64,000 bases of DNA. Origin: Naegleria gruberi. Its lineage: Eukaryota. Below are positions 16,286 to 64,000 of the stretch, one piece after another (the first letter of the stretch is position 1; every line of letters begins with the position of its first letter). The notes under the pieces are model-generated. The model saw only the letters and a list, made by a program, of their open reading frames with translations, was not told the origin of the DNA and did not search any database. The DNA lies in the NCBI GenBank assembly GCA_000004985.1, contig GG738899.1. One strand, 5' to 3'. Position numbers and translations under genes: made by a program.

Positions 16286-18016
16286 ATGTCTGCAGGATCT
16301 TCATCGTTATTGGGACAACAGTTACCACGTAAACGTGTTTGTATTGTAGGTGCTGGGTGTAGTGGTTTGTGTGCCATTAAAGAATTGGCAGCATCCAATG
16401 ATCAAGTTTATGAAAATCAAGAATTTGCCATCAAATATCAAATTCCACTCTTTGATATTGCTTGCTATGAGGCTTCTAATGATATTGGAGGATTGTGGAG
16501 GTATTCAGAGAAGGAAACTGATTTCTCATCGGTTTATAAATCAACAGTGATCAATACAAGTAAGGAGTTGATGAGTTATTCGGATTTTCCAATTCCTGAT
16601 GAATTTCCAACTTTTCTTCCTCATGAAAAGGTTGTAGAATATTTGAAATTATATGCTGCCAAGTTTGAATTGGAACAATATATTGAATTTAATACTCGTG
16701 TGGAGAATATTGATCTTGTCAATTCTGGATCAACTGACAAGTATAAGGTTATTATTAGAAAGGGTGATCAGTTGAGTGAAGAAACTTTTGATCATATTAT
16801 GGTTTGTACGGGACATCACTCAACACCAAATATTGCAACATTTGAGGGATTGAAGGAAAATTTCAAAGGAAATGTCATTCACTCACATTCTTATAAGAAT
16901 CCATTCGATTCTGACATGTTCATGAATAAGAATGTGCTTGTAGTTGGAATTGGTAACAGTGGTGGTGATATTGCTGCAGAATTGGCTAAAAATGTGGCCA
17001 AACAAGTGATCTTATCAACCAGAAGAGGATCCTGGATTATACCAAGAGAACTACTTGGTGATCCACTTGATCATGTTCCAAGATTTGCATGGATGTTACC
17101 ACGTAGAGTTATTCAATATGCCAACGAGTTCTTATTAACTCTTGTGAATGGAGATTTGAAAAAATTCTCTAAATACTTGGCTCCTCGTCATCGATTCTTT
17201 GGTAGCCACCCAACTGTAAATAGTGAACTCATTTCCAAGATTAATAATGGTGTAGTTCGTGTAGTTCCAAATATTGTGAGATTTTCCAGAGATGGCCACA
17301 CTTGTAGATTTGAAAATGATGAAAATGCTTCGAATATTGATACAGTAGTTATTTGTACAGGATATAGAATTTCATTCCCATTCTTTAAGGATGGTTTCTT
17401 TGAGGATTGTTTCGATGAGAATAACAAGGTTTCACTATACAAGTACGTTTTTCATCCAAAACATGGAACTGGTATTGCATTCATTGGACTCATTCAACCA
17501 TTTGGTGCCATCATTCCAATATCTGAATTACAATCAAGAGTTGCTGTGAGAATGTTCAGAGGAGATTACAAACTTCCATCCGAATCCGAAATGAAACAAG
17601 ATGTCGAACAAAAACGTGAAGCAATGGCCTCGAGATATACTGAATCAAAGAGACACACTGTTCAAGTTGACTATCCACATTACACAGACGAATTGGCCGA
17701 CATTATTGGTGTGAAACCTCAATTTACAAAACATTTAATCAAAGACCCTCAATTAGGATCCTTACTTTTATCATCACCTGCCTATCCATGTACATACAGA
17801 ATTGAGAAGGAGACGAGTTTAATTACAAGTGAAAGTCATCAAAAGAAGGAACGAGAACAGGCCATCAATCTCATCAAACACTATAGAAAGCAAACGAGTA
17901 AGGATGAAACAAGTACTTTTGGAAAGATTTTGGCAATTATCAAGGCAGTTTTCTTCCTCTTATTCTTATTTGTGAAGGTAATCTTGTCTAAATTCATAGA
18001 TTGGGAGAAGGTGTAA
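16286..18016 (+). CDS. Flavin-containing monooxygenase (FMO), with C-terminal hydrophobic membrane anchor.
   Basis: FAD-binding VCIVGAGCSGL. FMO-identifying motif FKGNVIHSHSYKN (FxGxxxHxxxY). NADPH-binding VLVVGIGNSGGDIAAEL. C-terminal transmembrane segment ILAIIKAVFFLLFLFVKVIL. Single uninterrupted ORF. Confidence 0.85.
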   Translation: MSAGSSSLLGQQLPRKRVCIVGAGCSGLCAIKELAASNDQVYENQEFAIKYQIPLFDIACYEASNDIGGLWRYSEKETDFSSVYKSTVINTSKELMSYSDFPIPDEFPTFLPHEKVVEYLKLYAAKFELEQYIEFNTRVENIDLVNSGSTDKYKVIIRKGDQLSEETFDHIMVCTGHHSTPNIATFEGLKENFKGNVIHSHSYKNPFDSDMFMNKNVLVVGIGNSGGDIAAELAKNVAKQVILSTRRGSWIIPRELLGDPLDHVPRFAWMLPRRVIQYANEFLLTLVNGDLKKFSKYLAPRHRFFGSHPTVNSELISKINNGVVRVVPNIVRFSRDGHTCRFENDENASNIDTVVICTGYRISFPFFKDGFFEDCFDENNKVSLYKYVFHPKHGTGIAFIGLIQPFGAIIPISELQSRVAVRMFRGDYKLPSESEMKQDVEQKREAMASRYTESKRHTVQVDYPHYTDELADIIGVKPQFTKHLIKDPQLGSLLLSSPAYPCTYRIEKETSLITSESHQKKEREQAINLIKHYRKQTSKDETSTFGKILAIIKAVFFLLFLFVKVILSKFIDWEKV

Positions 18017-32500: not shown

Positions 32501-33218
32501 TCCTGTGTGTTCAGGTGGTTGTGGAAATGGTTATTGTAGCTCACCAGGTACTTGTTCCTGTAATTCTGGATGGTCTGGCACAACATGTTCAACACCTGTC
32601 TGCTCTGGTGGCTGTGGTAATGGTTTTTGCAGTGCTCCTGGAAAATGTACTTGTAATTCTGGATGGTCTGGCACAACTTGCACAACTCCAGTTTGTTCAA
32701 GTGGTTGTGGTAATGGCGTTTGTAGTTCACCTGGTTCTTGTTCCTGTAATTCAGGTTGGAGTGGTGCTACTTGTACAACTCCTGTTTGTTCAACATGTAA
32801 TGGTAGAGGTTCATGTGTTGGTCCAGAAAGTTGTTCATGTAACAGTGGATGGTCTGGAAATCTCTGTCAAACACCTGTCTGCTCAACCTGCAATGGACGT
32901 GGTACTTGTGTTGGTCCAGAAAGCTGTTCTTGCAGTAGTGGATGGACTGGAAACTTGTGTCAAACACCTTCATGCACCAATAATTGTAATGGACACGGAA
33001 CCTGCACTGGGCCAAATACCTGTTCCTGTAATTCTGGTTGGAGTGGAGCTGCCTGTGAAACTTGTAGTAATTGTTGTTATGGTATTCCAGCTTCTGATCC
33101 AAGTGTTTGTTCCTGGGGTCAAGGTAGATGTGTGAGTGGTGCTTGTGTCTGTATTGGTCCTTACTATTGTGGTGCACAATGTCAACAATGTGGTTGTAAC
33201 AAATATATGTGTCCTTAA
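20560..33218 (+). CDS. Giant adhesin-like type II membrane protein (>4,500 aa): 3-codon first exon (20560-20568), 42-nt intron (20569-20610), N-terminal signal-anchor transmembrane segment, ~28 tandem ~100-aa cadherin/VCBS-like repeats, Cys-rich linker, VWA domain, then at least 22 tenascin-type EGF-like repeats. The CDS is interrupted by a 51-N assembly gap (~32234-32284) inside the EGF array. Stop at 33216-33218.
   Basis: ATG GCA CTG|GTAAGT...GATAG|AGA joins in frame to track ORF 20665-33135, giving MALRNISNATIVKSIVVAAVVLGTLIGALVITLAVTLTIKS (hydrophobic anchor). Repeats carry the recurring signature V(N/Y)(N/T)xPxAxxDxxxVxWNxxxxxIxVLxNDxDxDGD, about every 100 aa from ~20980 to ~29300. VWA/MIDAS-like DVVFIVDGSYSIS...RIGIVQYSSDATVELDLN at ~29560-30200. 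EGF modules C.G.G.C.....C.C..GW(T/S)G.DC..P(I/V)C recur every ~31 aa from ~30760. Track ORF 32208-33218 continues the same EGF repeats after the gap in the correct frame and ends ...CQQCGCNKYMCP*. Confidence 0.8.
20980..29300 (+). repeat. Coding tandem array of ~28 divergent ~300-nt (100-aa) cadherin/VCBS-like repeat units within the giant gene.
   Basis: Periodic protein motif (VNTPPxAVxDxISVxWNxxAxLNVLxNDYDxDxD and variants such as IHW/THW/FHW + ...ND.D.DGD) counted about 27-29 times in the translation of 20665-33135. Confidence 0.7.
30760..33120 (+). repeat. Coding tandem array of ~93-nt EGF-like repeat units, highly similar at the nucleotide level, containing the assembly gap. The true copy number is unknown.
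   Basis: Recurring ...tgt caa tgt caa act ggt tgg act gg(a/t) tct gat tg(t/c) tc(a/c) att cc(a/t) att tgt tat... units. A run of 51 N at ~32234-32284 lies in the middle of the array. Alternate reading frames stay open across the array (track ORFs 30878-32305 +), typical of a low-complexity repeat. Confidence 0.75.
32234..32284. other. Assembly gap (51 N) inside the EGF-repeat array of the giant gene.
   Basis: Literal run of n in the sequence. Flanking sequence on both sides is the same EGF repeat unit. Confidence 0.95.
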
Positions 33219-44187: not shown

Positions 44188-45261
44188 ATGTTCGATGAAA
44201 AATACTTTAATCCAGTTCACTATGCAAATGCTGAACAAGAATACAAACAAAAAAATAGAGAAAAGTCACTTGTAAAATATGATGATGATTCCAATTCTGG
44301 ACCAGTTACTGAAACTCAAATGAGAGCAGGCGATTCTGATTCATTAGATGAAGTGACTCTTTCTTTATATGTTAATAATATTCCAGCTTCCAAAAAGGAA
44401 CCATTTACCATTTATATCAATGGTGATGAATTTTTCAAGAGTGAAGAAGAAATTCCACTCACAAGAACTACTGTATTGAGAGCTTCATTTGAAAAACCAC
44501 CACGTGGTGAGGAATTGGTCATTGAAGCTCGTTTCAATATTGAAGCTCGTGATGTTGACACCAAGCAACAATTTAACATTACCAAAAATGGTACATTCAT
44601 GTTCTTTGGTATCGAAAAAGTTGGAGACAGTGAACGTATCCAAATGAAACAACAACATAATGATACTTTTGGACCAAAATCTGGAGAAACTATGACTAAA
44701 TCAAGTGGTGCTTCTGCTAGCTCAAAGAGTTCAACTGAACAAATTCCAGTTTACTTCCATTTGGCTGGTATTAATGCTACTGAACAAAAACCATTCGAAA
44801 TTTATGTTAATGGTCAACAAATTTACAAGCAAACTCAAGATCTTGGAGATAGAATGGCCATTGTAACTGGAAGATTGCCAAATGTTGATGATTTGAGAGT
44901 TACTGTTAAGGCAGTTTCTCTCCTCGATGGTTTGGAAGAAGAATCTGAAGTTAACGTCTCCAAGTATGGTAATTACATCAAGTTGGAAGTTAGCAGTGAT
45001 CGTTCTGTTATTGACATTACTCAATCAAAGAATGCTGAATTTGACAATGCCACCATTGTTGATTCAAAGAAGATGCCAAAATCCATTCCAAAAGTTACTC
45101 CTTCCACTACCTCAACAACTACAACTGCAAAGCCAGCAGCATCAACAGGAGGAAGTGAAGATTATTTGGATGTTTTGAAAAAGTTGGGTGAATTGAGAAA
45201 GGCAGGTATTTTGACTGAAGAAGAATTCCAAGCAAAGAAGAAACAAGTTCTTGGTTTGTAA
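44188..45261 (+). CDS. Hypothetical protein with two more copies of the same ~95-aa domain, an S/T-rich linker and a SHOCT-like C-terminal tail.
   Basis: Single 357-aa ORF. Repeats LSLYVNNIPASKKEPFTIYINGDEFFK... and YFHLAGINATEQKPFEIYVNGQQIYK... C-terminus EDYLDVLKKLGELRKAGILTEEEFQAKKKQVLGL matches the SHOCT-type pattern (L..L..L...G.IT.EEF...K..LL). Confidence 0.55.
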   Translation: MFDEKYFNPVHYANAEQEYKQKNREKSLVKYDDDSNSGPVTETQMRAGDSDSLDEVTLSLYVNNIPASKKEPFTIYINGDEFFKSEEEIPLTRTTVLRASFEKPPRGEELVIEARFNIEARDVDTKQQFNITKNGTFMFFGIEKVGDSERIQMKQQHNDTFGPKSGETMTKSSGASASSKSSTEQIPVYFHLAGINATEQKPFEIYVNGQQIYKQTQDLGDRMAIVTGRLPNVDDLRVTVKAVSLLDGLEEESEVNVSKYGNYIKLEVSSDRSVIDITQSKNAEFDNATIVDSKKMPKSIPKVTPSTTSTTTTAKPAASTGGSEDYLDVLKKLGELRKAGILTEEEFQAKKKQVLGL

Positions 45262-47266
45262 ATAAAGTAGAACCACATTCTTTGGATTTATTTTGCTTTG
45301 CAAATCGACTTGGCAGCTTGTCTGGTAAGGATAACAAGGATGGACACGAGAGAGCTTGTTTGACTTGTGGATCTTCCCTCAAGTGTTTTGGTGCATACAA
45401 GTAGGCAATTGGGGAGTAACTTTCCATACATTTCAATAAGAGATCCTTGTCAGATCTAACTCTTTCCGAAGCATAAATGTAAATGCTACTTTCTGAATTT
45501 TCAATCGCTGTCTTATCATCTCTCATCTTTGATGTAAATAAACGTGGATCAATATTACTCAAATCTGAAGGATATTCTTCTCTCAAAATATCAATTGGTA
45601 CCACTCCATAGTTCAACAAATCTGGATTCGATTTCAAAGCCGTAATCCAGAAAGTATTATCCTTACGAAGCTTACTACTCACTAGAACGCTTGTATATGC
45701 TGATATTTCAAGCAAATGCAACATAAACTCATCATCTTTCAAGTATTCTGCTGGGATGAAATTTTGTACTGCATTGTAATTCATAGCATAGTCAATATCA
45801 TCGTCTTCCATATTTCTCAGTATTTCCAAGATTTGATCCATTGTTAAGTTTAGTCCACTGACATATGCCAAAGCTTTTGGATTTGCTAATATTTTGACAT
45901 CATTCTTGAGAGAATCACCAATAAAAAGAGCACAATTTACATTGATATCAATGCATTCTAACATGAATTCCCTATTATTTCTCAATTCAGGAGAAGCAAT
46001 ACTTAAGAAAATTACATTTCTACGTGAGATTTCCTCAAGAATTACATCTCTATCCTCCAAATATTCATTAGTCTTGTAATTTCTATGGAAGTGTTCATTG
46101 ATAACTTCAACCATGAGTGTTAAATTGTTCAACAATTCTGGCTCTACTGATTCAATATCCAATGTAACCTGTAAGAACCTTAAAATGTCTTCCTTTGTCT
46201 TAATTTTGAAGCCAATTTCACCCAAACCTATAGTATAGACCCAGTGTTTAGCCACTTCTGGATCATTGATGAATTCTGTTTGAACACGATATGGATATAC
46301 TAAATAAGGGTAATGCTTCATTAATTTGATTGTAAACTCTTTATCCTTTCTTAAACTATGATGTAAGAAAAGGTGAGAACTATTGATATTGAACAAATTA
46401 AAGTAAGCATCCTTATCCTTTCTGATTTCTGTAGGAAAAAATGCTGGAATACGTTGAATAAAAGAATCTGGATCAGTTTCGAATAATTGTTTGACTGCTC
46501 CCAATATTTCTGGATCTCTTCTCAATTCAACACTGAGATATGGATAGAAATTAGCATGCACTTTCAAAAACTCGACAAGATCCTTCTTATCTCCTTCTTG
46601 CATAATTTTCACATACTTTTTCATGTTATCTATCATTTCTTCTTCTGGATAAACTTCATTACCAAGTAATGAAATTGGTTTGATTACATGAATTGGAATA
46701 CTCTCAATCCAATCTTTGATATGTCCAATGCATTTCAATGATGGGAACATTGTAGTACCTGTCTTTAAATAAAAGAAACCATTTCTCTTATCTAAAAGTG
46801 TCACTACTGTAGAGTACAAATGTCCTGTCTGAACCATTATCAAATTCTCTTGCCATTGATTTTCACCAAATTCACTGTCCAATAGCAAGGGAAAGGTTGA
46901 ACGTTCAGAGATTGGTGTTTCTACAACAAATTCCCAATCATCAACCGGGGCAATGGTAATTAAATTAGAGAAATGATATCTGCCACTTGCACAATTAGTC
47001 AACCAAACCTTCAAGTGAAATTGCATATTGGTAAAACCAAATTGATTAATTAAATTGGCTAATTGTTCATTGCTGAGTGCAGGAGAATCGTAATCATGGG
47101 CAAGTTCTTGGCAATATTTATGCCATTTGTCAATCAAGTCATTCTTCTCTTCTGTGTGATAAATTGCATCAAAGGTTGTGTTTATCAATCTGCTGTGTGC
47201 TCTGTCTATTGTTGAAAGGAATGGGAAAATCCTAACAACAACTTCTGGGATGTGGAAGATATTCAT
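45119..47266 (-). CDS. F-box-like / DUF4116-type repeat protein. The 3' end is uncertain because the ORF tail overlaps the convergent gene's 3' end.
   Basis: 715-aa ORF. N-terminal F-box-like IPEVVVRIFPFLSTIDRAHSRLINTTF. At least 7 repeats of the form (S/P)xELRxDKEFxLxxxK / LRKDNTFWITALKSNPDLL / VRSDKDLLLKCMESY / LREDPQVKQAL, reminiscent of DUF4116 repeats. The last ~47 codons (45119-45261) overlap the 3' end of + gene 44188-45261. Confidence 0.55.
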   Translation of the reverse strand: MNIFHIPEVVVRIFPFLSTIDRAHSRLINTTFDAIYHTEEKNDLIDKWHKYCQELAHDYDSPALSNEQLANLINQFGFTNMQFHLKVWLTNCASGRYHFSNLITIAPVDDWEFVVETPISERSTFPLLLDSEFGENQWQENLIMVQTGHLYSTVVTLLDKRNGFFYLKTGTTMFPSLKCIGHIKDWIESIPIHVIKPISLLGNEVYPEEEMIDNMKKYVKIMQEGDKKDLVEFLKVHANFYPYLSVELRRDPEILGAVKQLFETDPDSFIQRIPAFFPTEIRKDKDAYFNLFNINSSHLFLHHSLRKDKEFTIKLMKHYPYLVYPYRVQTEFINDPEVAKHWVYTIGLGEIGFKIKTKEDILRFLQVTLDIESVEPELLNNLTLMVEVINEHFHRNYKTNEYLEDRDVILEEISRRNVIFLSIASPELRNNREFMLECIDINVNCALFIGDSLKNDVKILANPKALAYVSGLNLTMDQILEILRNMEDDDIDYAMNYNAVQNFIPAEYLKDDEFMLHLLEISAYTSVLVSSKLRKDNTFWITALKSNPDLLNYGVVPIDILREEYPSDLSNIDPRLFTSKMRDDKTAIENSESSIYIYASERVRSDKDLLLKCMESYSPIAYLYAPKHLREDPQVKQALSCPSLLSLPDKLPSRFAKQNKSKECGSTLFTNQELVSSLLGILLQSKYLPFSIHPTFSKHPNNLHFLLLMLLALQL

Positions 47267-47459: not shown

Positions 47460-50400
47460 TCAAATTCTCTCCACAATATTCTCAAGCAATTCATAAATCT
47501 TATTGAAAGAAGGCCTCTCTGAAGGATTGTGTTTCCAACATTCTGTCATTAAATTGATGAATAATTGCACGCATTCAATTGTATCATCATTAGTAAAGAG
47601 TTGAGTATTGGTAGTAATCCATTGATTAATCTCATCTCTATTCGAAACATCAAAGGGAAGGAGAGGTCTTTGGCCATTAATAACAAGTGGTGGAACTTTA
47701 AATGTGTTTTTCACATGTTGGAATGGAGTGGCTCTGAAAAACATTTCCCACATAATTATAGCAAATGAATAAACATCAATTTTGCTGGCTTCCTTATTCT
47801 CTATTTGTGTATCAGAAACAAATGTCTCAGGGCTGTAATTAATTGTTACATTATACTAAACTAACACGAAACTTACCTGCAGTATAAGATGGTACCTATT
47901 TGTTTAGTCATATTTGTTTGAACAGTGTTGCTAACGAGTTTCACAAGACCAAAATCTGAAACCTTTGCCTGATTCTTATCGTTTAGCAATACATTGCCAG
48001 GTTTCTAATAAAAAGATGAATAATACTTATAAATTGGAAAACCTACCAAATCTCTGTGAATAATCGCTGGTTTCAGTGAATGTAAATAAATCATGCCATT
48101 AGATATGTGAAGTAAAATTTTTAACACATTTTGGAAGTGTTGGTTTGTGAAATTGGAATATTTCGAATTGGAAATAAATCGATCCAATGCACCATTTTCC
48201 ATGTACTCTGTAACAATATACTTGCTCTTCTCAGTCATACATACTCCGTAAAATATTAACACGTTGGGATGTCTCAATCGACTCAAAACTGCAGCCTCCT
48301 TTTCAAACTCTTCATTGTTAATTGAACCTTCTGAGAAATCATACTTGAGGGATTTGATAGCAACATTAATATTTGACCATGAGCCGAGGAAAACATTAGC
48401 TGAACCACCTTCTCCTATCCTCTTTTCAATAGTGATTTCTTCGATTGGAATAATGAAGGAGTCGTCCTTTTGATATTTGGATGTTTTAGAGTTGCTTTTC
48501 ACTAATGATTGGGAAAGCTCTGTATCGTTAGTGAGAGATCTATACTTGGTACTACCTCCACTCGAACCATTGTCAATACTGGAAGCTTTATCATAGTATT
48601 GCTGTTCTTCTTCAGTAAATTCAAATAGCATTCTCTTGTCAATGAGTTTGTTTTCAATAGCTTGCTCTGCTCTTTCTTTTTTCTTCAATCTGTTTAATTT
48701 TTTGATGATCGTTACCATACAATACATTCCCAATCCAAGTAAAATACCCAGAATGAATAAAAAAAGAGAGGTTCCAATAATAATTGCAACGTATGTTTCT
48801 ACTGGAAATTCAGGAATTTTCTTACATTCAAAATTGAAAACATTAGCCTCTTGGGTCAGTGATTTATCTAATGCTGTTCCACTCTTACAATTTCCTATTT
48901 GAATTGGTAGTTCGATTGTGCTAAATCTATTTTCAATTATGATTCTTGTAGGTACTTTGAAATACTCATCCAAGGTTTCATTTCCAAAAACATTAATAGT
49001 GAATGTAATGTAATTCATATTGTTAGGCTGCTTGTTTGACAGTTTGATATAGGATGAAGATGAATAAAAATCAAAAATCTCATCAGAGAATGGTGCTATA
49101 GTTCCATCCTTGGTTGTTTTTACAATAAATGAAATATTGTATCTCTCTCCAATTAATAATTCATAATTTCCATTCACAATTTTTGGAGTTATTCCAGTGA
49201 ATTCTGCTGAGGATAATCGTAGAGGAATAGTATTATCCATTCCCATTACTGCTACATTTCCATTTAATGTACATCCACTTAAAGTTGGAAGGGTTGCCTG
49301 ATTGAAAAACATTGCCCCTCCACTCAGTCTTGCTGTATTATTTACAAACTGTGAATATTGGAAATTTAATTGATATGAACCAGTTGGAAAATAGATGGCA
49401 CCACCACGATCTGCATAATTTCCAATGAAATTTACGCCATTAAATTCGTATGGAGGAGTAAATTTGGCATCATTTACTGCGGACTCTATTGAAATGGCAC
49501 CACCTCCACAAAAAGCTCCATACCTAGACATTGGATACAAATTACAAGTAACTCTATTATTAATAAACTTGCTTCCCCTGATGAACAAATTAGCTGCCAA
49601 ATATTTCACACGAACAGCTGCTCCACTGAAAGTGGCTAGATTATTATAAAATTCGCAATAATCAATGAACAATCTTTGTACAGACTGAATCGTCACTGCT
49701 GAATCATATGAATTATAAAATTTTGAGTTTGAAAATAAAACTTGAGATCTGTAGCCATTGCCAGAAATGTCGTAAATGTCAAATTGTCTCCTCTGTGAAA
49801 ATTCACAATTTACAACAGAAAGCACCGAGTACGATTCCACGCGTACGTGAGCGAATCTATTATCAAGTTTGATATTTCTCAGTGTGGTATAAACAATTTC
49901 TTTAAAGATTAGAAACGCGCTCACAAGATCTTGAGATGGAATTGCGTTTCCTGTCATTGTAATATTCTCAAATATTGCATTTTGGAAAGAGGTAACAGAG
50001 GAAAATAACTTTCCTGAATAGACTCTAATATCCTTCACTATGATACTAGTTCCAGATTGTGCTAAAATGCTTAAAATAATACCTCCAAACTTTTGCAAAA
50101 CACCTTTGAGCTTAGTACTCTGGTTAATATCAGATGTCTCACAATTAGTAAATGTAACATAATTACAAGCAAATGTATGAACAACACTAAATATAGTTCT
50201 CTCCACATGAACTATACTCGATTCCTGAATATTGACCAGTGTTTTTGCAATACTATCCAAGATTATTACTTCGTCACATAAATAGAAAACAGAGACTAGA
50301 TCCAAGGTTGACCTATTAACTACTACCTTGTTTCTATAATTGACAACAATTGTTTCTGAAAAAAATGAATTTTCTACAATGAAATATCTAGATTTCAAAT

Positions 50401-51172
50401 TGGATTCCACTTGTCCAGGGGTATTGTTATCCATAATTCCTGAACCATTAAAATAACAATTCTCCACCAACACTGAAATGAATAAATCGAAAATAATAAT
50501 ATCATTCAGTACCAAATCGTGTAAATATAATGCTTCAAATCCATATGGAATTAGTAACCCTTTCGAAAATAATGGTAACGTCTGAACACATGTCAGAACA
50601 CTCGAACGTCCATCCAAGTGAGTGATTTCCATGAAGAATCTCACTAGTTCAAATTCTTCCATTTGATACCACTCTAGCCCACATAAAAAGGGTTCATTTC
50701 CAATAACAATAACTTTTAAAAGTACATTTCTCTCCACTGATTTCATATTTAAAAAATCGGAATAATCTCTATATAATGTCTCATTCAATGAATAGAAGAG
50801 TTGAGTAAATGCTACACATGGATTTTCCATAGAATGTCCACAATTCACATTTGTTGAAGAATTACCATTAATACCTCCCAAGTACAAGGTAATATTTACG
50901 GTCATTTCCATGGAAGAATTATTCGTTATCAATGACCAAAAGGCCTCCTTCGGCCTCTCCACAACCAAGGTTGGTTCACCATTACTTGTTGATGAAGAGG
51001 TGGTTGCTGTTGTTGTTGTTTGTATCATCATTGGTTCGTCCATATTCATATTCATATCAAGAGCATGTGAATTTATTGGTGTTGACAGCTGTATCAACAC
51101 CATCATAGCCAAAAGTAAGAGAAGTAATGAAGACCTTTCCAGAGAAGGAAAACGTAAGGGTTGTTCCTGCAT
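47460..51172 (-). CDS. Receptor-type protein kinase: signal peptide, large ectodomain of parallel beta-helix / Pmp-like (GGA[IM]) repeats, transmembrane segment, TKL-like kinase domain. Exons (minus strand) 51172-~48044, ~48000-~47882, ~47837-47460.
   Basis: N-terminal SSLLLLLLAMMVLIQLSTPINS. Repeats GGGAISIESAVN, RGGAIYFP, LSGGAMFFN, NGNVAVMG. Transmembrane segment YVAIIIGTSLFLFILGILLGLGMYCMVTII. Kinase GEGGSANVF...VAIK...HPNV...YLHSLKPAIIHRDL|GTAGGT..TTATTAG|KPGNVLLNDKNQAKVSDFGLVK...ILYC|GTAAGT..TTACAG|SPETFV...DVYSFAIIMWEMF...CWKHNPSERPSF (track ORF 47460-47753). Confidence 0.8.
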
Positions 51173-58087: not shown

Positions 58088-61000
58088 ATGACAGAAAAGT
58101 GTAAAACCTATGAGAGAGATGGTCAATGTAATAACGAAAATTGTACACTGATTCATCAGACGTGTCCAAAATTTAGATCACGAGAAGGATGCTCCGAAGG
58201 TTCTTCCTGTCCATTGATTCACAATAGAAAGGTCTTTCAGAAAGATTGCCCTCGTGGTGAGTCATGTAATCAAGGATTGGCATGTAAATATTTCCATCGG
58301 AGAAGTGTTAATTTCACACAACAACAACAAAAACCTCCACTGCAACAACAACATTCTAATCATCAATTTAGGGAGAGAACCAAAGCAAATGAAAGTTCAT
58401 CAAATTTCAATGAAAAGAGAAAGTTTGAAAGAGATTATGATAGACGATCAAATAGAAAATTGGATCAAGTAGAAATTACCAGTAGCAGTAGTAATAGTAG
58501 TAATAGTACTAATTTCGGAAACGTTGATACAGAGGGAGATTATATTATGAAAGAAAATTCCTCTACATCTTTTAATGTGGAAGAAGAAATTGAAATTGTG
58601 GAGGATGTGAAGAAAATTGATTTGCTTCCGAACTCTACTACTAATAACCTATTTGTGTTGAAGGTGGATAAAAGAGATATTTCCGATGAATCTGCAAAGC
58701 TGCTAGGAGATGAAAAATCCATGATACTAATGGTGGAACAAGTAAATGCAGAGTTTGATAAAAAGAAGGAAGAATTGACAAGAAAATTATTAGATATGGT
58801 TGATGATAGAGAAGAACTTGCCACAGAAGGACCAATTATTAGAAATGAACGTAAACTATTGGAGAAACAACAAGCAAATTTCCAGAGACAAGTTCAGCAA
58901 ATTTTTTCACTCAAAGACCAGTATCCACTCTCTACAATTTTACATGCACTCTATAGAGAATGCTGCCGAGGAATGAAGAGCCTTCCTTTGTATGCATTTA
59001 GATCTGATATTATTGCAAGTTTACAAAATAATAATGTCATTATTTGTATTGGTGAAACAGGCTCTGGTAAATCTACACAAATTCCTCAATACATTCTCGA
59101 GGAAGGATATGGAAGATTTGGTAAAGTAGTGTGTACAGAACCTAGAGCAGTTGCTGCAATGTCTCTTACAAAGAGAATTTCTCAGGAAATGTCCATTAAG
59201 GAAAATAGTCTAGTGAGCCATAATTTATATGGAAAGGTTAATAACTGGTCCGATTTACTATTCATGACTGATAGAAAGTTATTGAATGAATTTCAAAATG
59301 ATGCTCTACTCTCAAAATATTCAGTTATCATTGTCGATGAAGCTCACGAAAGAAATCTATGTTCCGACATTCTAATTTCACTATTGAAGGAATGTGTAAT
59401 CAAGAGAAGTCAATCAACAACTCTAAATCCACTCAAATTAATTATAACTTCAGCAACTATTGATGAAAATCTATTTTCAACATTCTTTAATAATTGTCCA
59501 GTTATTAAAGCTCCTGGAAGAATGTATCCAGTGGATGTTTATTGGACTAAACAAAGAAAAGAAGATTACGAACAAGCAGCTGTTCAAAAAGTGTTAGAGA
59601 TTATTTCAAACAACAAATTGGAAGGTGACATTTTGGTATTTCTAAGCTCACCAGACGAAATTGATAGATGTATTAAGAAATTAGAATTTCACTCAAGGGA
59701 AAACAGAGCTCTTTCTCGCTGTTTGATTCTTCCACTCCATGGAGCACTCACGCCTGAAGAACAAGAAAGAGTATTCGAAAGAGTAAATTCTAGAAGAATA
59801 ATCTTTTCAACACGTATTGCTGAAAACTCTGTCACTATTGATGGTGTGAAAATCATTGTGGACACTGGTGTTTCACGAGAAAAATTCTACGATCAACAGA
59901 GAAACATGTCTATTCTCAAAGTGAATAATATTAGTCAAAGTTCTGCCATTCAGAGAAAGGGAAGAGCTGGTAGAACTTCATCAGGTGTATGTTTCAGATT
60001 ATTTTCCGAACAAGACTTCTCCTCAATGAGTGTAAATCCAACTCCAGAAATTTTGAATTCTAATTTAGGATTGACTTTATTGAGATTATTTTCAGCTGGT
60101 GTGAAAAATGTATTGGAATTTGATCTAATTGAAAAACCTAATCTGGAGGATATGAAGAAATCTCTCAAGAATTTAACCGACTTGCAATTTGTGGATGAGA
60201 AGCAAAACATTACACAAATGGGTAAGCAAGCTTCCAAGATGGAAATTGAACCTTCTCTTGCAAGAATGATAATTGAGGGAATTAATTTAGGAATTGGAGA
60301 TGAAATTATTCAACTAGTGTCCATTATGTCATTCTCCAACATGATCTATGCAAAATCTAAGTCTACAGATTATTTAGAAAAAGATATTATGAAAGTCTCA
60401 ACTTCAAAGGAAGGTGGTGATCTGATAACACTTCTTCACATCTTCCAAGGATTTCTTCAAGCAAAAGATAAGCGAAGATATGCAAAAGATGGAAATTTCA
60501 GTCTGAAAACATTGATCCAAGCAGAAGAAACCATGACAGATATTAGGAAGAGATTGAATTTTGAAAGATCTAGCAATAGTGAATCAAAAACAGTTGAATC
60601 CATTCAAGAAATAATTACCAGATGTGTTTGTTGTAGCATGTTTGATAATTTTGCCTATTTTCATGGCATTATTAATGGAAAGAGAGTTTACAAAATTCTC
60701 TCATCAAATATGGAAGCTTTTATTCATGGTTCATCATTTTCTAATTATTCAAGCGAGCCAATTGACTATGTAATATATGGAGAATTAGTCAAGACGGAGA
60801 AACTATTTATGAAAAATGTAACTCCTATTTCTTTAGAGTCAATCAAACCATTCATTACTTTCAATCAATCTCTAAATGTTGTAAAGAAGAAAGTGATATA
60901 TCCACTCACCAGAGGAATATTCGATTGTTTAAATGCCAATAACGGAGCATTGTTAGAATATTTAAGATTGAATATTGGATCAATTGTTGAAATGGACCCA

Positions 61001-63100
61001 GATAGAAACGAACTCGTTGTATATTTATCTGAAGGAGATCAAGTCGAAACAATCCTCAAATATGTTTATGATACAGCTGTTCAAAGATCAAATAATGAAT
61101 TCCTCGAACATCAAGTTGATTCAAAAGTAAGAGCCCTGATTGGAAGAGGAATGCAAGTTGTCAAATTACTTTTTCCAGGAGAGTTTGTAAAATGCAATAT
61201 TCTTAATATCCCAAATATGGATTATAATCACATGAGGGAAGTATTCGAGATGCATAATCTTCCAATACTCGATTGCAAACTATTCTTTGAATTGCCATCC
61301 AATAGGTATGGGACTGTAATTTTTGATTCTCCACAAACATCCAAGAAAGCTCGTGAATTATTTTCTGATTGTCAAGAGTTTCGTATAACCACAAGTGATT
61401 CAACAATAGTTCCAGAAGAAAAAGAAATGAAAAACTATCCACTCAACATTTATTTCTACTCTGAGCACGATGGTAAATGTTTCATCTATTCAGATAACGC
61501 CAATGCCCTAAACATTATTCAATCTCAGTACCTTTATGGTCAAAAGATGTTCCGTAATATTGAAAAGAAAAACCTAAAAATTGCAAACTTATCCTTCACA
61601 CTTGATGAGCACAGAATTAGAGATTTCATTCCAAGAGAACTTCATAACGATATCAGGATAGTTATGAATAGAGATAGACTTGGTAAGGAACAAGAAAATC
61701 AATTTGTTAAAAAGATGGTCAACACTATTAGACCAATGATGGAACTTTTTGGAGAATTGGAAATGTTTGAGTATGTTCCAACCAAAGACCTTGTAGGACA
61801 GTACAAGATATTGGCCAAGTTTACCAACTTGGAAAGTACAATGACAGCAATGAAAAGTTTAAATGGAGCTAGCGTCGGTGACAAGTTTATTTGGGTGGAA
61901 CCTGAATTTACGGACATCATACCATTCCCACTTGATTTGGACACTGATAATTTATTTAGAGAAGAGTTAAGGAAAATGATGAAGGAAATTTTTTCTGTTT
62001 ATGGATGCAGGTCTGGAATGTTTGAAATGAAGAATGGAAGACAAAAGGCTTTGAAAGTTAGAGCAAATTCAGAAGAAGGACTTACTAGAGCAATGGCTAT
62101 CGCTCACAAATATCTAAAGCCATATGTTCTAAAATTGGGAGTATTCGATTTCTCTATTGCATTCAAGAAAAAGTTTAGAATTCTTGAATTGACCAAAAAC
62201 TTCAAAGCTTATATTGACTTTGATATTAAGAATAATAATGTCAATATTTATCAACTCGGAATTAATCAAATGAAAGATATTGTCACTACTATTCTACAAG
62301 AAATTAGAAATTCCAATAAGGACATTATCAAGTTAACTCAATTGAAACCAATTATTGGAAATCAAGGAAAAGTTTTAAAATCTCTGCAAGAAAAATATGG
62401 AGGAAGAATTGATTTTGATTACAAACAAAAAATTATTTCTATTAACAGTTCAGATCAAGAGGAAATCAATAATTTTAAACAGGAAATTAGAAATATATTA
62501 GAAAGCCACCAAACTACCAACGAAGAAATATCTCCAGAAGACTGTCCAATCTGTTATGGACCAAAAGAGAATCCAGTTCTCTTATCGTGTGGCCATTCAC
62601 TTTGTAGAGATTGTTTTATATGTCAACTTGATCAAATGACATTTAATTGTTGTGAATGTGACAGTTTGCTAACCATTCCAGAAATCAATCTTTCTCAGGA
62701 TTTGAATTTAATTGAAAAACAAGCTCAGTATGCCGTTGAAAAATATCTTGAAAGACATCCAAATGATTTTAAACACTGTTCATCAGCTCATTGTTCTGGA
62801 ATTGTCTGCATTGATCAAAGTCAAGTAGCTCACTGTCAATCCTGTAACAAAACTTATTGTATCAAGTGTAATGAACCTCCACACCCTGGATTGGATTGTT
62901 CTAATGAGGAAGAAGCTCTAATCATTGAGTGGAAGAAGGCCAACACAAAACCATGTCCAAAATGTAAAAATAATATTGAGAAGAATGGAGGATGCAATCA
63001 CATAACTTGCTATTATTGTGGAGCTCACTTTTGTTGGTTGTGTGGATTTTTGGCCAATGGGGCTGTTGGTGTTTATACACATTTACAAACGTGTAGATAA
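58088..63100 (+). CDS. Multidomain protein: N-terminal CCCH-type zinc fingers, DEAH-box RNA helicase core with helicase-associated C-terminal region, then a C-terminal RBR (RING1-IBR-RING2) E3 ubiquitin-ligase module.
   Basis: Single 1670-aa ORF. CCCH fingers CKTYERDGQCNNENCTLIH and CPRGESCNQGLACKYFH (C-x8-C-x5-C-x3-H). Helicase motifs GETGSGKSTQIPQ (I), IIVDEAHER (II), TSATID (III), STRIAENSVTIDGV (V), QRKGRAGR (VI). RBR: RING1 CPICYGPKENPVLLSCGHSLCRDCFICQ, IBR CSSAHCSGIVCIDQSQVAHCQSCNKTYCIKCNEPPHPGLDC, RING2 KPCPKCKNNIEKNGGCNHITCYYCGAHFCWLCG. Confidence 0.8.
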   Translation: MTEKCKTYERDGQCNNENCTLIHQTCPKFRSREGCSEGSSCPLIHNRKVFQKDCPRGESCNQGLACKYFHRRSVNFTQQQQKPPLQQQHSNHQFRERTKANESSSNFNEKRKFERDYDRRSNRKLDQVEITSSSSNSSNSTNFGNVDTEGDYIMKENSSTSFNVEEEIEIVEDVKKIDLLPNSTTNNLFVLKVDKRDISDESAKLLGDEKSMILMVEQVNAEFDKKKEELTRKLLDMVDDREELATEGPIIRNERKLLEKQQANFQRQVQQIFSLKDQYPLSTILHALYRECCRGMKSLPLYAFRSDIIASLQNNNVIICIGETGSGKSTQIPQYILEEGYGRFGKVVCTEPRAVAAMSLTKRISQEMSIKENSLVSHNLYGKVNNWSDLLFMTDRKLLNEFQNDALLSKYSVIIVDEAHERNLCSDILISLLKECVIKRSQSTTLNPLKLIITSATIDENLFSTFFNNCPVIKAPGRMYPVDVYWTKQRKEDYEQAAVQKVLEIISNNKLEGDILVFLSSPDEIDRCIKKLEFHSRENRALSRCLILPLHGALTPEEQERVFERVNSRRIIFSTRIAENSVTIDGVKIIVDTGVSREKFYDQQRNMSILKVNNISQSSAIQRKGRAGRTSSGVCFRLFSEQDFSSMSVNPTPEILNSNLGLTLLRLFSAGVKNVLEFDLIEKPNLEDMKKSLKNLTDLQFVDEKQNITQMGKQASKMEIEPSLARMIIEGINLGIGDEIIQLVSIMSFSNMIYAKSKSTDYLEKDIMKVSTSKEGGDLITLLHIFQGFLQAKDKRRYAKDGNFSLKTLIQAEETMTDIRKRLNFERSSNSESKTVESIQEIITRCVCCSMFDNFAYFHGIINGKRVYKILSSNMEAFIHGSSFSNYSSEPIDYVIYGELVKTEKLFMKNVTPISLESIKPFITFNQSLNVVKKKVIYPLTRGIFDCLNANNGALLEYLRLNIGSIVEMDPDRNELVVYLSEGDQVETILKYVYDTAVQRSNNEFLEHQVDSKVRALIGRGMQVVKLLFPGEFVKCNILNIPNMDYNHMREVFEMHNLPILDCKLFFELPSNRYGTVIFDSPQTSKKARELFSDCQEFRITTSDSTIVPEEKEMKNYPLNIYFYSEHDGKCFIYSDNANALNIIQSQYLYGQKMFRNIEKKNLKIANLSFTLDEHRIRDFIPRELHNDIRIVMNRDRLGKEQENQFVKKMVNTIRPMMELFGELEMFEYVPTKDLVGQYKILAKFTNLESTMTAMKSLNGASVGDKFIWVEPEFTDIIPFPLDLDTDNLFREELRKMMKEIFSVYGCRSGMFEMKNGRQKALKVRANSEEGLTRAMAIAHKYLKPYVLKLGVFDFSIAFKKKFRILELTKNFKAYIDFDIKNNNVNIYQLGINQMKDIVTTILQEIRNSNKDIIKLTQLKPIIGNQGKVLKSLQEKYGGRIDFDYKQKIISINSSDQEEINNFKQEIRNILESHQTTNEEISPEDCPICYGPKENPVLLSCGHSLCRDCFICQLDQMTFNCCECDSLLTIPEINLSQDLNLIEKQAQYAVEKYLERHPNDFKHCSSAHCSGIVCIDQSQVAHCQSCNKTYCIKCNEPPHPGLDCSNEEEALIIEWKKANTKPCPKCKNNIEKNGGCNHITCYYCGAHFCWLCGFLANGAVGVYTHLQTCR

Positions 63101-63154: not shown

Positions 63155-64000
63155 TTATTGATTGTTTAATAATGGGATGTGAAAAACTAAATCTTTCGAA
63201 TAAGGAATTACAGTGTCCTCCTTCTTGATGATATAACCTAATTGATTGGAGACCAGAACTGTTTTTCCATCTGTAACTCGAGGGTTGTCCAAATATAAAA
63301 AGGAATTTCGGTGAGTGTGTCCAAAACCCCAGAACGAAATATTTGAATGTTGTTTGATTATGTGATCCAAGTTTGTAGCCATACCACTTGCAAGAAACAT
63401 TTCATCTTCAAGAACAGTTCCATTAATGAATGGAGAATGATGTGTAAGAACAGCAATAGTTTCTTCTGGATGTTTTTCACATTCCTTTCTAATATATTCA
63501 ACCAACCTTTCGTGCATTTCAATGGTTTCGGATATTGTTACACATTTCTCAGAGTTGGTTTTAATTCTTCTATAATCATTCATTGAGTATTCGACTTTCG
63601 ATCTTTCTTTCAATGGTACATTTGTCCATAATGTCCCACCAACAAATCTAATTCGTTTCCCACTTTCATTTTCATATACGAAACTACTCTTGTTCAAAAA
63701 CACAAGATTATCCTTCTTTTTACAAATATCCATAATCCTCTGATCAGTTTCCGATATAATATTCCTATAATATTCATGATTTCCAGTAACAATAAACACA
63801 ATCTTGAATTTTTCAGCTTGCTCCATCACGAATTGTTCATATTCCAAACTAAACGGATCACCAATATCACCCAATAACCCTAAAACCTCACCTTTTGCTT
63901 CTATGATATTCGTTTCTCGACTAATTTTTCCATCCTCCTCTGCAACATTACTGATTAAAGCCTTTACTTGAGGAAATTCTAAATGAACATCGGAAGCAAG
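63155..64000 (-). CDS. Calcineurin-like metallophosphoesterase, 5' partial (N-terminus lies beyond the window end).
   Basis: ORF 63155-63874(-) contains IVFIVTGNHEY and GFGHTHRNSF (GNHE/GHxH metallophosphoesterase motifs). The minus-strand frame stays open to position 64000, reading ...LASDVHLEFPQVKAL...GDIGDP (SDxHLE motif), so the CDS continues upstream of the window. Confidence 0.7.
   Translation of the reverse strand, partial: LASDVHLEFPQVKALISNVAEEDGKISRETNIIEAKGEVLGLLGDIGDPFSLEYEQFVMEQAEKFKIVFIVTGNHEYYRNIISETDQRIMDICKKKDNLVFLNKSSFVYENESGKRIRFVGGTLWTNVPLKERSKVEYSMNDYRRIKTNSEKCVTISETIEMHERLVEYIRKECEKHPEETIAVLTHHSPFINGTVLEDEMFLASGMATNLDHIIKQHSNISFWGFGHTHRNSFLYLDNPRVTDGKTVLVSNQLGYIIKKEDTVIPYSKDLVFHIPLLNNQ

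What the first reader, a model, noticed from the sequence alone, without database searches (positions are those of the whole stretch)
58088..63100. Unusual fusion: CCCH zinc fingers + DEAH-box helicase + C-terminal RBR E3 ubiquitin ligase in one ORF
All helicase motifs I-VI of a DHX-type RNA helicase are present in order. The same uninterrupted ORF ends in a complete RING1-IBR-RING2 cassette, including a RING2 with the Cys-containing CNHITCYYCGAHFCWLC block typical of RBR ligases such as parkin/ariadne. An RNA helicase covalently fused to an RBR ligase, with RNA-binding CCCH fingers in front, suggests an RNA-sensing or RNP-remodelling enzyme that ubiquitinates its targets. I do not recognise this as a described family.
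Basis: partly seen in the sequence, partly recalled or inferred. Interest (0 to 1): 0.65.

Follow-up and report, generated by a model that had tools for sequence, protein, structure and literature searches.

The report
Known helicase–RBR ubiquitin ligase, Naegleria member
The ORF is real and intact, but it is a divergent Naegleria gruberi member of an RNA-helicase-plus-RBR-ubiquitin-ligase family described long ago (plant DEAH11/DEAH12); the only modest novelty is three extra CCCH zinc fingers at the front, which its closest amoeboflagellate relatives also have.

Summary
Observation confirmed. Window 58088-63100 (+) is one uninterrupted 1670-codon ORF. Cys1636 aligns with the catalytic Cys310 of ARIH2.

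The claim that this is not a described family is wrong. It is the "Helicase / Plant I" RBR subfamily (Marín 2010), annotated in plants as DEAH11/DEAH12, and Pfam holds DEAH11-specific domain models. Named plant, mollusc and echinoderm proteins align collinearly over 83-91% of the ORF.

The window is Naegleria gruberi (Heterolobosea, Discoba), not Amoebozoa. The closest relatives (30-34% identity) are an N. fowleri protein, a Willaertia magna protein and an unnamed assembly protein. The N. fowleri and the unnamed protein also carry N-terminal CCCH fingers, so the triple architecture is a clade feature already present in public data.

The mechanism is inferred: RNA/RNP targeting by the fingers, RRM/KH modules and DEAH motor, then E2-to-Cys1636-to-substrate ubiquitin transfer. 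The one studied member, Arabidopsis DEAH11/DCS4, associates with the spliceosome.

Verdict: new, unusually divergent member of a known kind. Low interest.

The parts
58088..63100 (+). Complete gene: 1670-aa CCCH-DEAH helicase-RRM/KH-RBR protein, one intron-free ORF
   Evidence: ORF. (1691-codon stop-free run, chance about 1e-54). (22 synonymous against 13 nonsynonymous codon differences from a 99%-identical metagenome copy). (end-to-end alignment, aa 1-1669, with P0243).
58100..58156 (+). CCCH-type finger 1, C-x8-C-x4-C-x3-H (aa 5-23)
   Evidence: Sub-threshold Pfam zf-CCCH. Aligns with the CPSF30 finger array, E=0.0044.
58163..58222 (+). CCCH-type finger 2, canonical C-x8-C-x5-C-x3-H (aa 26-45)
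58247..58297 (+). CCCH-type finger 3, C-x5-C-x5-C-x3-H (aa 54-70)
   Evidence: ZC3H12A finger hit at aa 52-71.
58298..58975 (+). Low-complexity, helix-rich linker (aa 71-296), ending in the family-conserved segment before RecA1 (YRECCRGMKSLPLYAFR)
   Evidence: Sequence. Family consensus FxRECxRLxxxLPxYAxR. The in-frame 3- and 9-nt indels relative to L001 lie here.
58976..60853 (+). DEAH/RHA helicase core (aa 297-922): RecA1, RecA2, winged helix, ratchet (HA2), OB fold; motifs I-VI intact
   Evidence: Pfam; Prp22/Prp43/DHX8, E about 1e-114 to 1e-107; motifs; substitutions in motifs Ia and V.
60854..62512 (+). RRM-like and KH-like linker (aa 923-1475), corresponding to RBD_DEAH11, RRM_DEAH11 and three KH_DEAH11 modules of the plant proteins
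62318..62512 (+). Last KH-like module (aa 1411-1475) with a GXXG loop (G1424-N-Q-G1427)
   Evidence: Pfam KH_1 E=1.4e-5 and 8e-5. Type I KH topology in the model. GXXG located.
62543..62659 (+). RING1 (aa 1486-1524), C3HC4, presumed E2-binding module
   Evidence: Ligand columns invariant or nearly so in 60 homologues.
62777..62899 (+). IBR / BRcat (aa 1564-1604), C6HC
   Evidence: Pfam IBR E=4.3e-12..
62954..63094 (+). RING2 / Rcat (aa 1623-1669). Second zinc site uses C1649, C1652, H1665, C1669, instead of the C-Y-x-H arrangement usual in the family
   Evidence: Pfam IBR_1/IBR_2.. V1662 replaces the family's Cys. The H-x3-C tail is shared with N. fowleri and P0243.
62993..62995 (+). Codon of Cys1636, predicted ubiquitin-thioester (catalytic) cysteine in GGCNHITC
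   Evidence: Aligned with ARIH2 Cys310 and with the HHARI RING2 GGCNHMVC. Invariant in 20 of 20 and 36 of 36 aligned homologues.

Best explanation
This is a functional Naegleria gruberi gene for a divergent member of the ancient 'Helicase (Plant I)' subfamily of RBR ubiquitin ligases, the family that plant genome annotations call DEAH11/DEAH12.

Shown here:
- One selected, intron-free ORF.
- An intact DEAH/RHA helicase most similar to the spliceosomal Prp22/Prp43/DHX8 group.
- A linker of RRM-like and KH-like modules.
- A complete RING1-IBR-RING2 cassette with the catalytic cysteine (C1636).
- An N-terminal array of three CCCH-type fingers, also present in an N. fowleri protein and in an unnamed assembly protein.

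Inferred mechanism:
1. The CCCH fingers and RRM/KH modules select an RNA or RNP.
2. The DEAH motor binds and translocates on single-stranded RNA using ATP.
3. RING1 recruits a ubiquitin-charged E2.
4. Ubiquitin passes to C1636 as a thioester and then to a lysine of a protein on that RNP. This is the RING/HECT-hybrid mechanism established for HHARI and parkin.

The RNP is most probably nuclear and splicing-related. The basis for that is the helicase's nearest solved relatives and the only studied member, Arabidopsis DEAH11/DCS4, which co-purifies with Prp8. Whether RNA binding or ATP hydrolysis gates the ligase is unknown.
For: Gene reality: ORF statistics; 0.74% nucleotide divergence from an independent metagenome copy, 22 synonymous against 13 nonsynonymous codon changes, indels of 3 and 9 nt in frame.

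Helicase.

RBR and catalytic Cys; Foldseek of the AF2 model hits ARIH2, HHARI, HOIP, parkin and HOIL-1.

Family membership: named DEAH11/DEAH12 proteins at 25-27% identity over 83-91% of the query, same Pfam architecture; DEAH11-specific Pfam domains in the homologues; those domains map collinearly onto aa 1006-1473; (literature on the Helicase RBR subfamily).

Middle modules.

CCCH array. Conserved in register in P0243 and present in N. fowleri FDP41_008854.

Organism.

RBR mechanism: PMC3305615.

Spliceosome link of AtDEAH11/DCS4: PMC11180117.
Against: - No biochemical or expression evidence for this protein, and no E3 assay found for any family member in the searched literature.
- It is the most divergent of 60 aligned members, differing at 37 of 181 family-conserved positions. 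These include RNA-contacting parts of motif Ia (Q351E, K354A) and motif V (N576R, T580N), so helicase activity could be altered.
- The DEAH11-specific Pfam models do not reach significance on it (KH_DEAH11 E=0.24).
- zf-CCCH is below Pfam's cut-off.
- The spliceosome link rests on one plant study that did not address the RBR part. Transfer to a protist at about 25% identity is weak.
Confidence: 0.8

Rival explanations
1. A new, undescribed protein family or a lineage-specific novel fusion.
For: No Naegleria-named protein appeared among the top 120 hits of the word-indexed search. The exact product is not on record. No paper found describes CCCH+DEAH+RBR together.
Against: - Full-length collinear homologues occur in plants, molluscs, echinoderms, cnidarians and nemerteans.
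- The subfamily is described in the literature.
- Pfam has DEAH11 domain families.
- The same CCCH+helicase+RBR layout exists in public N. fowleri XP_044557319.1 and in P0243 and P0307.
Confidence: 0.02
2. Artefactual fusion: two adjacent genes (helicase and RBR ligase) joined by an assembly error, a lost stop codon or read-through.
For: Introns and split ORFs occur elsewhere in the window, so ORF-level reading can mislead in this genome.
Against: - The same continuous ORF is present in an independent metagenome contig at 99% identity.
- The 550-aa linker is itself homologous to the linker of DEAH11/12 proteins.
- The architecture is conserved across eukaryotic supergroups.
Confidence: 0.02
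3. A decaying or neo-functionalised paralogue in which the helicase (or the ligase) no longer works enzymatically and serves only as an RNA-binding or scaffold module.
For: - Highest divergence in the family: 37 of 181 conserved positions changed, including motif Ia and V residues.
- N. gruberi has a second family member, NAEGRDRAFT_68960.
- Identity to N. fowleri is only about 32%.
Against: - Walker A lysine, DEAH, SAT, motif VI arginines, all 24 zinc ligands and C1636 are retained.
- The codon differences from the metagenome copy run 22 synonymous to 13 nonsynonymous, as expected under purifying selection.
- There is no stop or frameshift in 5 kb of AT-rich DNA.
Confidence: 0.1
4. A cytoplasmic RNA-surveillance or antiviral sensor-effector, not a spliceosome-associated factor. 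It would ubiquitinate proteins on aberrant or foreign RNA or on stalled ribosomes.
For: - CCCH fingers, KH and RRM modules and a processive helicase suit mRNA surveillance.
- From my own knowledge, other E3s with RNA-binding or ATPase modules act there (ZNF598, RNF14, ZNFX1, RNF213).
- Patchy, often-lost distribution and lineage expansions in invertebrates resemble fast-evolving defence genes.
- High divergence between Naegleria species.
Against: - No localisation data.
- The nearest solved helicases are spliceosomal.
- The only functional study places AtDEAH11 with Prp8.
- The finger array is most like nuclear CPSF30 (marginal E-value).
Confidence: 0.2

Closest known systems
Arabidopsis DEAH11 (AT4G01020, DCS4) and DEAH12 (AT5G10370); 'Helicase / Plant I' RBR subfamily (Marín 2010, PMC2904391)
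   Same: N-terminal DEAH helicase with HA2 and OB. Long linker with RBD/RRM/KH modules. C-terminal RING1-IBR-RING2 with catalytic Cys. Similar length (about 1700 aa). Collinear alignment over 83-91% of the query.
   Different: Only 25-27% identity. Plant proteins have no N-terminal CCCH fingers. The DEAH11-specific Pfam models do not score significantly on the Naegleria protein. The RING2 second zinc site uses H-x3-C instead of C-Y-x-H.
Naegleria fowleri FDP41_008854 (XP_044557319.1), Willaertia magna KAL9658444.1 and unnamed protein P0243 (closest clade; the first two are Heterolobosea, P0243's organism is unknown)
   Same: Closest relatives, at 30-34% identity over 1515-1789 aligned columns. 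N. fowleri has four CCCH-type fingers and P0243 at least three, ahead of the helicase. They share the RING2 H-x3-C tail.
   Different: Finger number and spacing differ (N. fowleri C-x5-C-x4/5-C-x3-H). The Willaertia model shows no fingers. Their motifs Ia and V keep the family consensus, whereas the window protein has TEPRAVAA and TRIAENS.
Ariadne-type RBR ligases (ARIH2/TRIAD1, HHARI/ARIH1), parkin, HOIP, HOIL-1
   Same: Full RBR cassette by sequence (ARIH2 E=1.4e-16) and by fold. Catalytic Cys position identical.
   Different: No Ariadne, UBL or other autoinhibitory domains recognisable. The accessory domains here are a helicase and RNA-binding modules.
Spliceosomal DEAH helicases Prp22/DHX8, Prp43/DHX15, Prp16/DHX38, Prp2/DHX16
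   Same: Best solved-structure matches over the whole helicase core, aa 297-916 (E about 1e-114 to 1e-102). Same RecA1-RecA2-WH-ratchet-OB layout.
   Different: Those helicases end after the OB fold and carry no ligase. The window protein has substitutions in motifs Ia and V.
CPSF30/CPSF4-Yth1 tandem CCCH array; other CCCH+DEAH proteins such as human DHX57 and Arabidopsis AT2G47680 (the last two from my own knowledge, not tested)
   Same: Three consecutive CCCH fingers align in register with CPSF30 ZF3-ZF5. CCCH fingers in front of a DEAH helicase recur in other families.
   Different: The E-value is marginal (0.0044). DHX57 and AT2G47680 have no RBR.
Basidiomycete CCCH + KH + RBR proteins (e.g. 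Moniliophthora roreri V2XBW0 'RBR-type E3 ubiquitin transferase')
   Same: Share the KH-RBR C-terminal module (match to query aa about 1420-1667) and several CCCH fingers.
   Different: No helicase domain.

Membership tests
RBR (RING-between-RING) E3 ubiquitin ligases | RING1 with eight C3HC4 zinc ligands | tested here: met
   C1486, C1489, C1501, H1503, C1506, C1509, C1521, C1524. These columns are invariant or nearly so in homologues. Aligned with ARIH2 RING1.
RBR (RING-between-RING) E3 ubiquitin ligases | IBR (C6HC) between the two RINGs | tested here: met
   Pfam IBR E=4.3e-12, 46.4 bits against a cut-off of 24.3. Ligands C1564, C1569, C1583, C1586, C1591, C1594, H1599, C1604.
RBR (RING-between-RING) E3 ubiquitin ligases | RING2/Rcat with a conserved non-ligand catalytic cysteine | tested here: met
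   C1636 in GGCNHITC aligns with ARIH2 Cys310 and the HHARI RING2. Invariant in alignments A2 and A3. Pfam IBR_1 38.5 bits and IBR_2 35.8 bits, both against a cut-off of 27.
RBR (RING-between-RING) E3 ubiquitin ligases | Forms an E3~ubiquitin thioester and transfers ubiquitin to a substrate | not testable with these tools
   Needs an in vitro ubiquitination assay with wild type and C1636A/S.
DEAH/RHA (SF2) RNA helicases | Motifs I, Ia, Ib, II (DEAH), III, IV, V, VI in order | tested here: met
   Deviations from the family consensus in motifs Ia and V are noted.
DEAH/RHA (SF2) RNA helicases | C-terminal winged-helix, ratchet (HA2) and OB-fold domains | tested here: met
   HA2_C 27.6 bits against a cut-off of 21.3, OB_NTP_bind 44.5 against 29.5, HA2_N weak at 17.3 against 21. 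Alignment to Prp22/Prp43 runs through aa 916.
DEAH/RHA (SF2) RNA helicases | RNA-dependent NTPase and unwinding activity | not testable with these tools
   Biochemical assay needed.
Helicase (Plant I) RBR subfamily = DEAH11/DEAH12-like | DEAH helicase and RBR in one polypeptide, helicase first, separated by a long linker (about 750 aa in soybean) | tested here: met
   Helicase aa 297-922, RBR aa 1486-1669, linker about 560 aa. Family description in PMC3904995 and PMC2904391.
Helicase (Plant I) RBR subfamily = DEAH11/DEAH12-like | Full-length collinear homology to named members | tested here: met
   25-27% identity over 83-91% of the query with proteins named DEAH11/DEAH12. The exhaustive search with the C-terminal half alone finds full-length family members.
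Helicase (Plant I) RBR subfamily = DEAH11/DEAH12-like | Family-specific linker domains (Pfam RBD_DEAH11, RRM_DEAH11, KH_DEAH11_1st, KH_DEAH11_2nd, KH_DEAH11) | tested here: inconclusive
   By HMM only KH_DEAH11 appears, at E=0.24; KH_1 is significant at 1.4e-5. However, the plant domains map collinearly to aa 1006-1473, and the AF2 model shows matching RRM-like and KH-like units.
Helicase (Plant I) RBR subfamily = DEAH11/DEAH12-like | RBR domain groups with the Helicase subfamily in a phylogeny of RBR domains (Marín's criterion) | not tested
   No tree was built. With the C-terminal half as query, the 13 hits at E<=1e-30 include the heterolobosean full-length helicase+RBR proteins, and further family members follow. 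The best PDB hits are Ariadne, because no family member has been solved.
CCCH (C3H1) zinc fingers | C-x4-15-C-x4-6-C-x3-H ligand pattern | tested here: met
   Three tandem matches at aa 5-23, 26-45 and 54-70. None of 200,000 shuffles gives three. There are no other matches in 22,212 aa of window ORFs.
CCCH (C3H1) zinc fingers | Significant match to a curated CCCH profile | tested here: inconclusive
   PF00642 scores 18.4 bits against a cut-off of 20.5 (E=0.002); several other CCCH models are weaker. PDB hits are all CCCH proteins but marginal (CPSF30 E=0.0044).
Spliceosome-associated factors (as reported for AtDEAH11/DCS4) | Physical association with spliceosomal components | not testable with these tools
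   Only the plant report exists. Needs IP-MS in Naegleria.

The most novel reading that the evidence does not exclude
In this CCCH-bearing clade (Naegleria species and relatives) the helicase and ligase may be mechanically coupled. RNA engagement by the CCCH/KH/RRM modules and ATP-driven movement of the DEAH motor would release an autoinhibited RBR. Ubiquitin would then be written only onto proteins (or even onto the nucleic acid itself) at the RNA site where the motor stalls. That would be an RNA-gated RBR ligase, a regulatory principle not yet shown for any RBR. Nothing here excludes it, and nothing here supports it beyond the covalent linkage and its conservation across eukaryotes.
Probability: 0.07. 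Interest if true: 0.75.

Novelty: new member of a known kind. Interest (0 to 1): 0.22.

Why it matters
Little for discovery. The fusion has been catalogued for years as the Helicase RBR subfamily, and the same CCCH-bearing layout is already in public Naegleria fowleri data.

It has some value as a reminder that this ancient and widespread helicase-ligase family still has no biochemical characterisation. Only one genetic and co-IP study (Arabidopsis DCS4) and one cotton study were found.

The Naegleria version is intron-free, carries extra CCCH fingers and keeps a GXXG-bearing KH module, so it could be a convenient construct for asking whether RNA binding or ATP hydrolysis controls an RBR ligase.

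No identical or near-identical annotated N. gruberi protein surfaced in the protein collections searched, so the reference annotation may lack this gene.

Tried and rejected
1. From the word-indexed search I first inferred that N. fowleri and N. lovaniensis lack a homologue. The exhaustive HMMER search and the cluster look-up showed this was wrong: N. fowleri FDP41_008854 and Willaertia KAL9658444.1 exist. The prefilter had missed them.

2. Pfam on the full protein gave no zf-CCCH hit at E<=0.1. Scanning the N-terminal 79 aa alone gave only sub-threshold hits.

3. DEAH11-specific Pfam models on the linker were not significant. I used alignment mapping and a structure model instead.

4. The look-up of encoding contigs for the exact product found nothing on record.

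6. Literature searches for 'helicase RBR' variants, for CCCH+IBR+DEAH and for Naegleria+RBR found only Marín 2010 and derivative plant surveys. Most DEAH11/DEAH12 hits were gene-list mentions.

7. One paper reading failed on term length.

8. P0002, the second-best hit, is a 956-aa helicase+RRM product on a 4.2-kb contig with no RBR in the called gene. It was not informative.

9. I considered a giant-virus origin because of the dense long ORFs and F-box/LRR/BTB genes. I rejected it because of the 100% N. gruberi match and the intron-split genes.

10. I did not use the third homology search or the second structure job, because the answers would not have changed the verdict.
Full report

Yes. The ORF listing gives a single ORF at 58088..63100 on the + strand, 1670 aa with an ATG start. 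The upstream Kelch-type gene ends at 57901 and the next gene, on the opposite strand, starts at 63155, so the ORF fills its intergenic frame. The stop-free run in this frame is 1691 codons, against a mean of 16 over all six frames of the window. At 34.7% GC, the chance of 1670 consecutive sense codons is about 1e-54.

An independent metagenome contig (L001, ENA ERZ929261) carries the same ORF. It differs at 37 of 4997 nucleotides, giving 22 synonymous and 13 nonsynonymous codon changes, and has two in-frame indels of 3 and 9 nt in the low-complexity N-terminal region. That pattern fits purifying selection.

**2. Anatomy**

- **aa 5-70, CCCH fingers.** There are three CCCH patterns: C-x8-C-x4-C-x3-H, C-x8-C-x5-C-x3-H and C-x5-C-x5-C-x3-H. 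They use every Cys (9) and His (3) of the first 75 residues. None of 200,000 shuffles reproduces three matches, and the pattern occurs nowhere else in 22,212 aa of window ORFs. Curated profiles only approach threshold: PF00642 scores 18.4 bits against 20.5. All weak PDB matches are CCCH proteins, the best being the CPSF30 finger array aligned in register at E=0.0044.
- **aa 71-296, linker.** A low-complexity, helical stretch ending in the family-conserved segment before RecA1.
- **aa 297-922, helicase.** A complete DEAH/RHA helicase with motifs I-VI in order and Pfam DEAD, Helicase_C, HA2_N, HA2_C and OB_NTP_bind. The best solved relatives are Prp22, Prp43 and DHX8 (E about 1e-114 to 1e-107), followed by DHX16/Prp2 and Prp16. 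HrpA, DHX36, DHX37 and DHX9 are more distant.
- **aa 923-1475, RRM/KH linker.**
  - An AlphaFold2 model of aa 920-1670, built on 36 homologues, has pLDDT 78.3 and pTM 0.56.
  - It shows several beta-alpha-beta-beta-alpha-beta (RRM-like) units and three beta-alpha-alpha-beta-beta-alpha (type I KH-like) units.
  - Pfam gives weak RRM_1 (E=0.01) and significant KH_1 (E=1.4e-5) hits.
  - The last KH-like unit keeps a GXXG loop at G1424-G1427.
  - Through the family alignment, the plant Pfam domains RBD_DEAH11, RRM_DEAH11, KH_DEAH11_1st, KH_DEAH11_2nd and KH_DEAH11 map collinearly to aa 1006-1473.
- **aa 1486-1669, RBR.** RING1 is C3HC4, IBR is C6HC, and RING2 has all ligands plus the free Cys1636. 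The cassette aligns with ARIH2 across all three parts (E=1.4e-16). C1636 falls on ARIH2 Cys310, in the same GGCNH motif as in the HHARI RING2. All ligand columns and C1636 are invariant or nearly so in the alignments.

**3. What organism**

The flavin monooxygenase ORF at 16286..18016 is 100% identical to a predicted protein of Naegleria gruberi on a 331-kb scaffold. N. fowleri and N. lovaniensis are only about 50% identical. Naegleria belongs to Heterolobosea in Discoba, not Amoebozoa.

The rest of the window fits an intron-poor protist. It has BTB/BACK, LRR, kinase, RGS and cyclase genes, and a few short introns splitting ORFs.

**4. Is it a known family?**

Yes.
- The top named hits are plant 'ATP-dependent RNA helicase DEAH11/DEAH12, chloroplastic' and 'DEAH12-like' proteins of molluscs, echinoderms and others. 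They have the same Pfam architecture and 25-27% identity over 83-91% of the query.
- The soybean survey (PMC3904995) describes proteins of more than 1700 aa with DEAD, Helicase_C and HA2 domains about 750 aa upstream of the RBR.
- Pfam now has five DEAH11-specific domain families.

An exhaustive HMMER search with the C-terminal half alone found 1373 cluster representatives at E<=1e-10 and 13 at E<=1e-30. The RBR part also matches other RBR ligases, so the looser count overstates the family.

**5. The closest relatives and the CCCH fingers**

None of 58 plant, animal or metagenome homologues from the first search has N-terminal CCCH fingers. The exhaustive search, however, uncovered a closest clade:

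| Protein | Length | Identity to window protein | N-terminal CCCH fingers |
|---|---|---|---|
| N. fowleri FDP41_008854 / XP_044557319.1 | 1834 aa | 31.6% over 1582 columns | four |
| Willaertia magna KAL9658444.1 | 1592 aa | 33.5% over 1515 columns | none in the model |
| P0243, unnamed Logan-assembly protein (organism unknown) | 1699 aa | about 30% end to end (aa 1-1669) | three fingers in register |

- N. gruberi also has a paralogue, NAEGRDRAFT_68960 / D2VJ97.
- A further unnamed helicase+RBR protein, P0307, has two CCCH fingers. Basidiomycetes have CCCH+KH+RBR proteins without a helicase.
- The triple architecture is therefore a clade feature that already exists in public, uncharacterised entries. 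No paper describing it was found.
- My earlier inference that N. fowleri lacks a homologue was wrong. The word-index prefilter had missed these proteins.

**6. How divergent is it?**

It is the most divergent of 60 aligned members, differing at 37 of 181 positions that are at least 90% conserved in the others; typical members differ at 4-9%.

- Changes include motif Ia (Q351E, K354A) and motif V (N576R, T580N), which contact RNA in DEAH helicases (my own knowledge).
- The usual RING2 Cys at position 1662 is replaced by Val. An H1665-x3-C1669 arrangement, shared with N. fowleri and P0243, can supply the ligands.
- The ATPase essentials are all retained: K328, D417, E418, S455/T457, and Q622, R623, R626 and R629.

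**7. How it most likely works**

Shown: the parts list above.

Established for the families:
- DEAH/RHA helicases are RNA-dependent NTPases that translocate 3' to 5' on single-stranded RNA (my own knowledge).
- RBR ligases bind E2~Ub through RING1, take ubiquitin onto the RING2 cysteine as a thioester, and then modify the substrate (PMC3305615).

Inferred: the fingers, RRM/KH modules and motor bring the ligase to a specific RNA or RNP, where C1636 ubiquitinates a nearby protein.

The only functional data found for the family are these:
- Arabidopsis DCS4 = AT4G01020 = AtDEAH11. Mutations suppress cop1-6, and the protein co-immunoprecipitates with Prp8 and is treated as a spliceosome component. 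The RBR part is not discussed (PMC11180117).
- Cotton GbDEAH12, which interacts with and restrains a NAC transcription factor (PMC13407882).

Together with the helicase's similarity to Prp22/Prp43/DHX8, this makes a nuclear, splicing-linked RNP the best guess. A cytoplasmic surveillance role is a live alternative. Whether helicase and ligase are allosterically coupled is unknown.

**8. Verdict**

- The gene is a new, unusually divergent member of a known kind, with a clade-specific CCCH array.
- No identical or near-identical annotated N. gruberi protein surfaced, so the reference annotation may lack it. This could not be settled with the tools available.
- Interest is low. The residual value is that the family as a whole remains biochemically unstudied.

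Noticed in passing
window 20665-33135 (+): A 4156-aa uninterrupted ORF encoding a giant repeat protein: 17 Big_9 'bacterial Ig' stretches, cadherin-like domains, a VWA domain and many teneurin-type EGF repeats. Probably a surface adhesion protein built largely from bacterial-type Ig and cadherin modules.
   Followed up: no
window 4388-5041 and 5136-6146 (+); 9422-7053 and 7111-6359 (-); 48005-51172 (-): Genes split by short introns. A PALP+ACT (threonine-dehydratase-like) enzyme is divided between two ORFs about 95 bp apart. An adenylate/guanylate cyclase catalytic domain is divided between two overlapping-frame ORFs. A kinase ORF contains only the first half of the kinase domain. This shows the genome has introns even though the helicase-RBR gene has none.
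   Followed up: partly
P0245 = N. gruberi NAEGRDRAFT_68960 / UniProt D2VJ97 (another scaffold, 396 kb): N. gruberi has a second family member. Its public 1145-aa model starts inside the OB-fold region (no helicase core) and breaks off within RING2 (GCNHMRFATGQ..., then a proline/glutamine-rich tail). The gene model looks mis-spliced or truncated, or the paralogue is degenerating.
   Followed up: partly
window 58088-63100 against public protein collections: No identical or near-identical protein labelled N. gruberi turned up. The only 99% match is an unnamed ENA metagenome protein. The gene may be missing from the reference N. gruberi annotation.
   Followed up: partly
L001 about 7330-7361 (P0001 C-terminus): The metagenome copy has a 1-nt indel near the 3' end. 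It replaces the last 11 residues (…GAVGVYTHLQTCR becomes …GGCWCLYTFTNV) and removes the conserved Y-x-H and the final Cys of RING2. This is probably an assembly error.
   Followed up: partly
L001 (ENA ERZ929261, run ERR1078381, PRJEB11402): An environmental metagenome contains a Naegleria gruberi-like genome fragment about 99% identical to the window over 7.4 kb, including the upstream Kelch gene.
   Followed up: no
window 44188-45261 (+) and 45119-47266 (-): An ORF ending in a SHOCT domain (a short domain mostly seen in bacteria), and a convergent ORF with three DUF4116 repeats. The two mechanical ORFs overlap by about 140 bp.
   Followed up: no
method note: The word-indexed homology search ranked plant and mollusc proteins first and missed the N. 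fowleri and Willaertia relatives, which score higher in direct BLASTP (657-748 bits). Absence from that list is not evidence of absence.
   Followed up: yes
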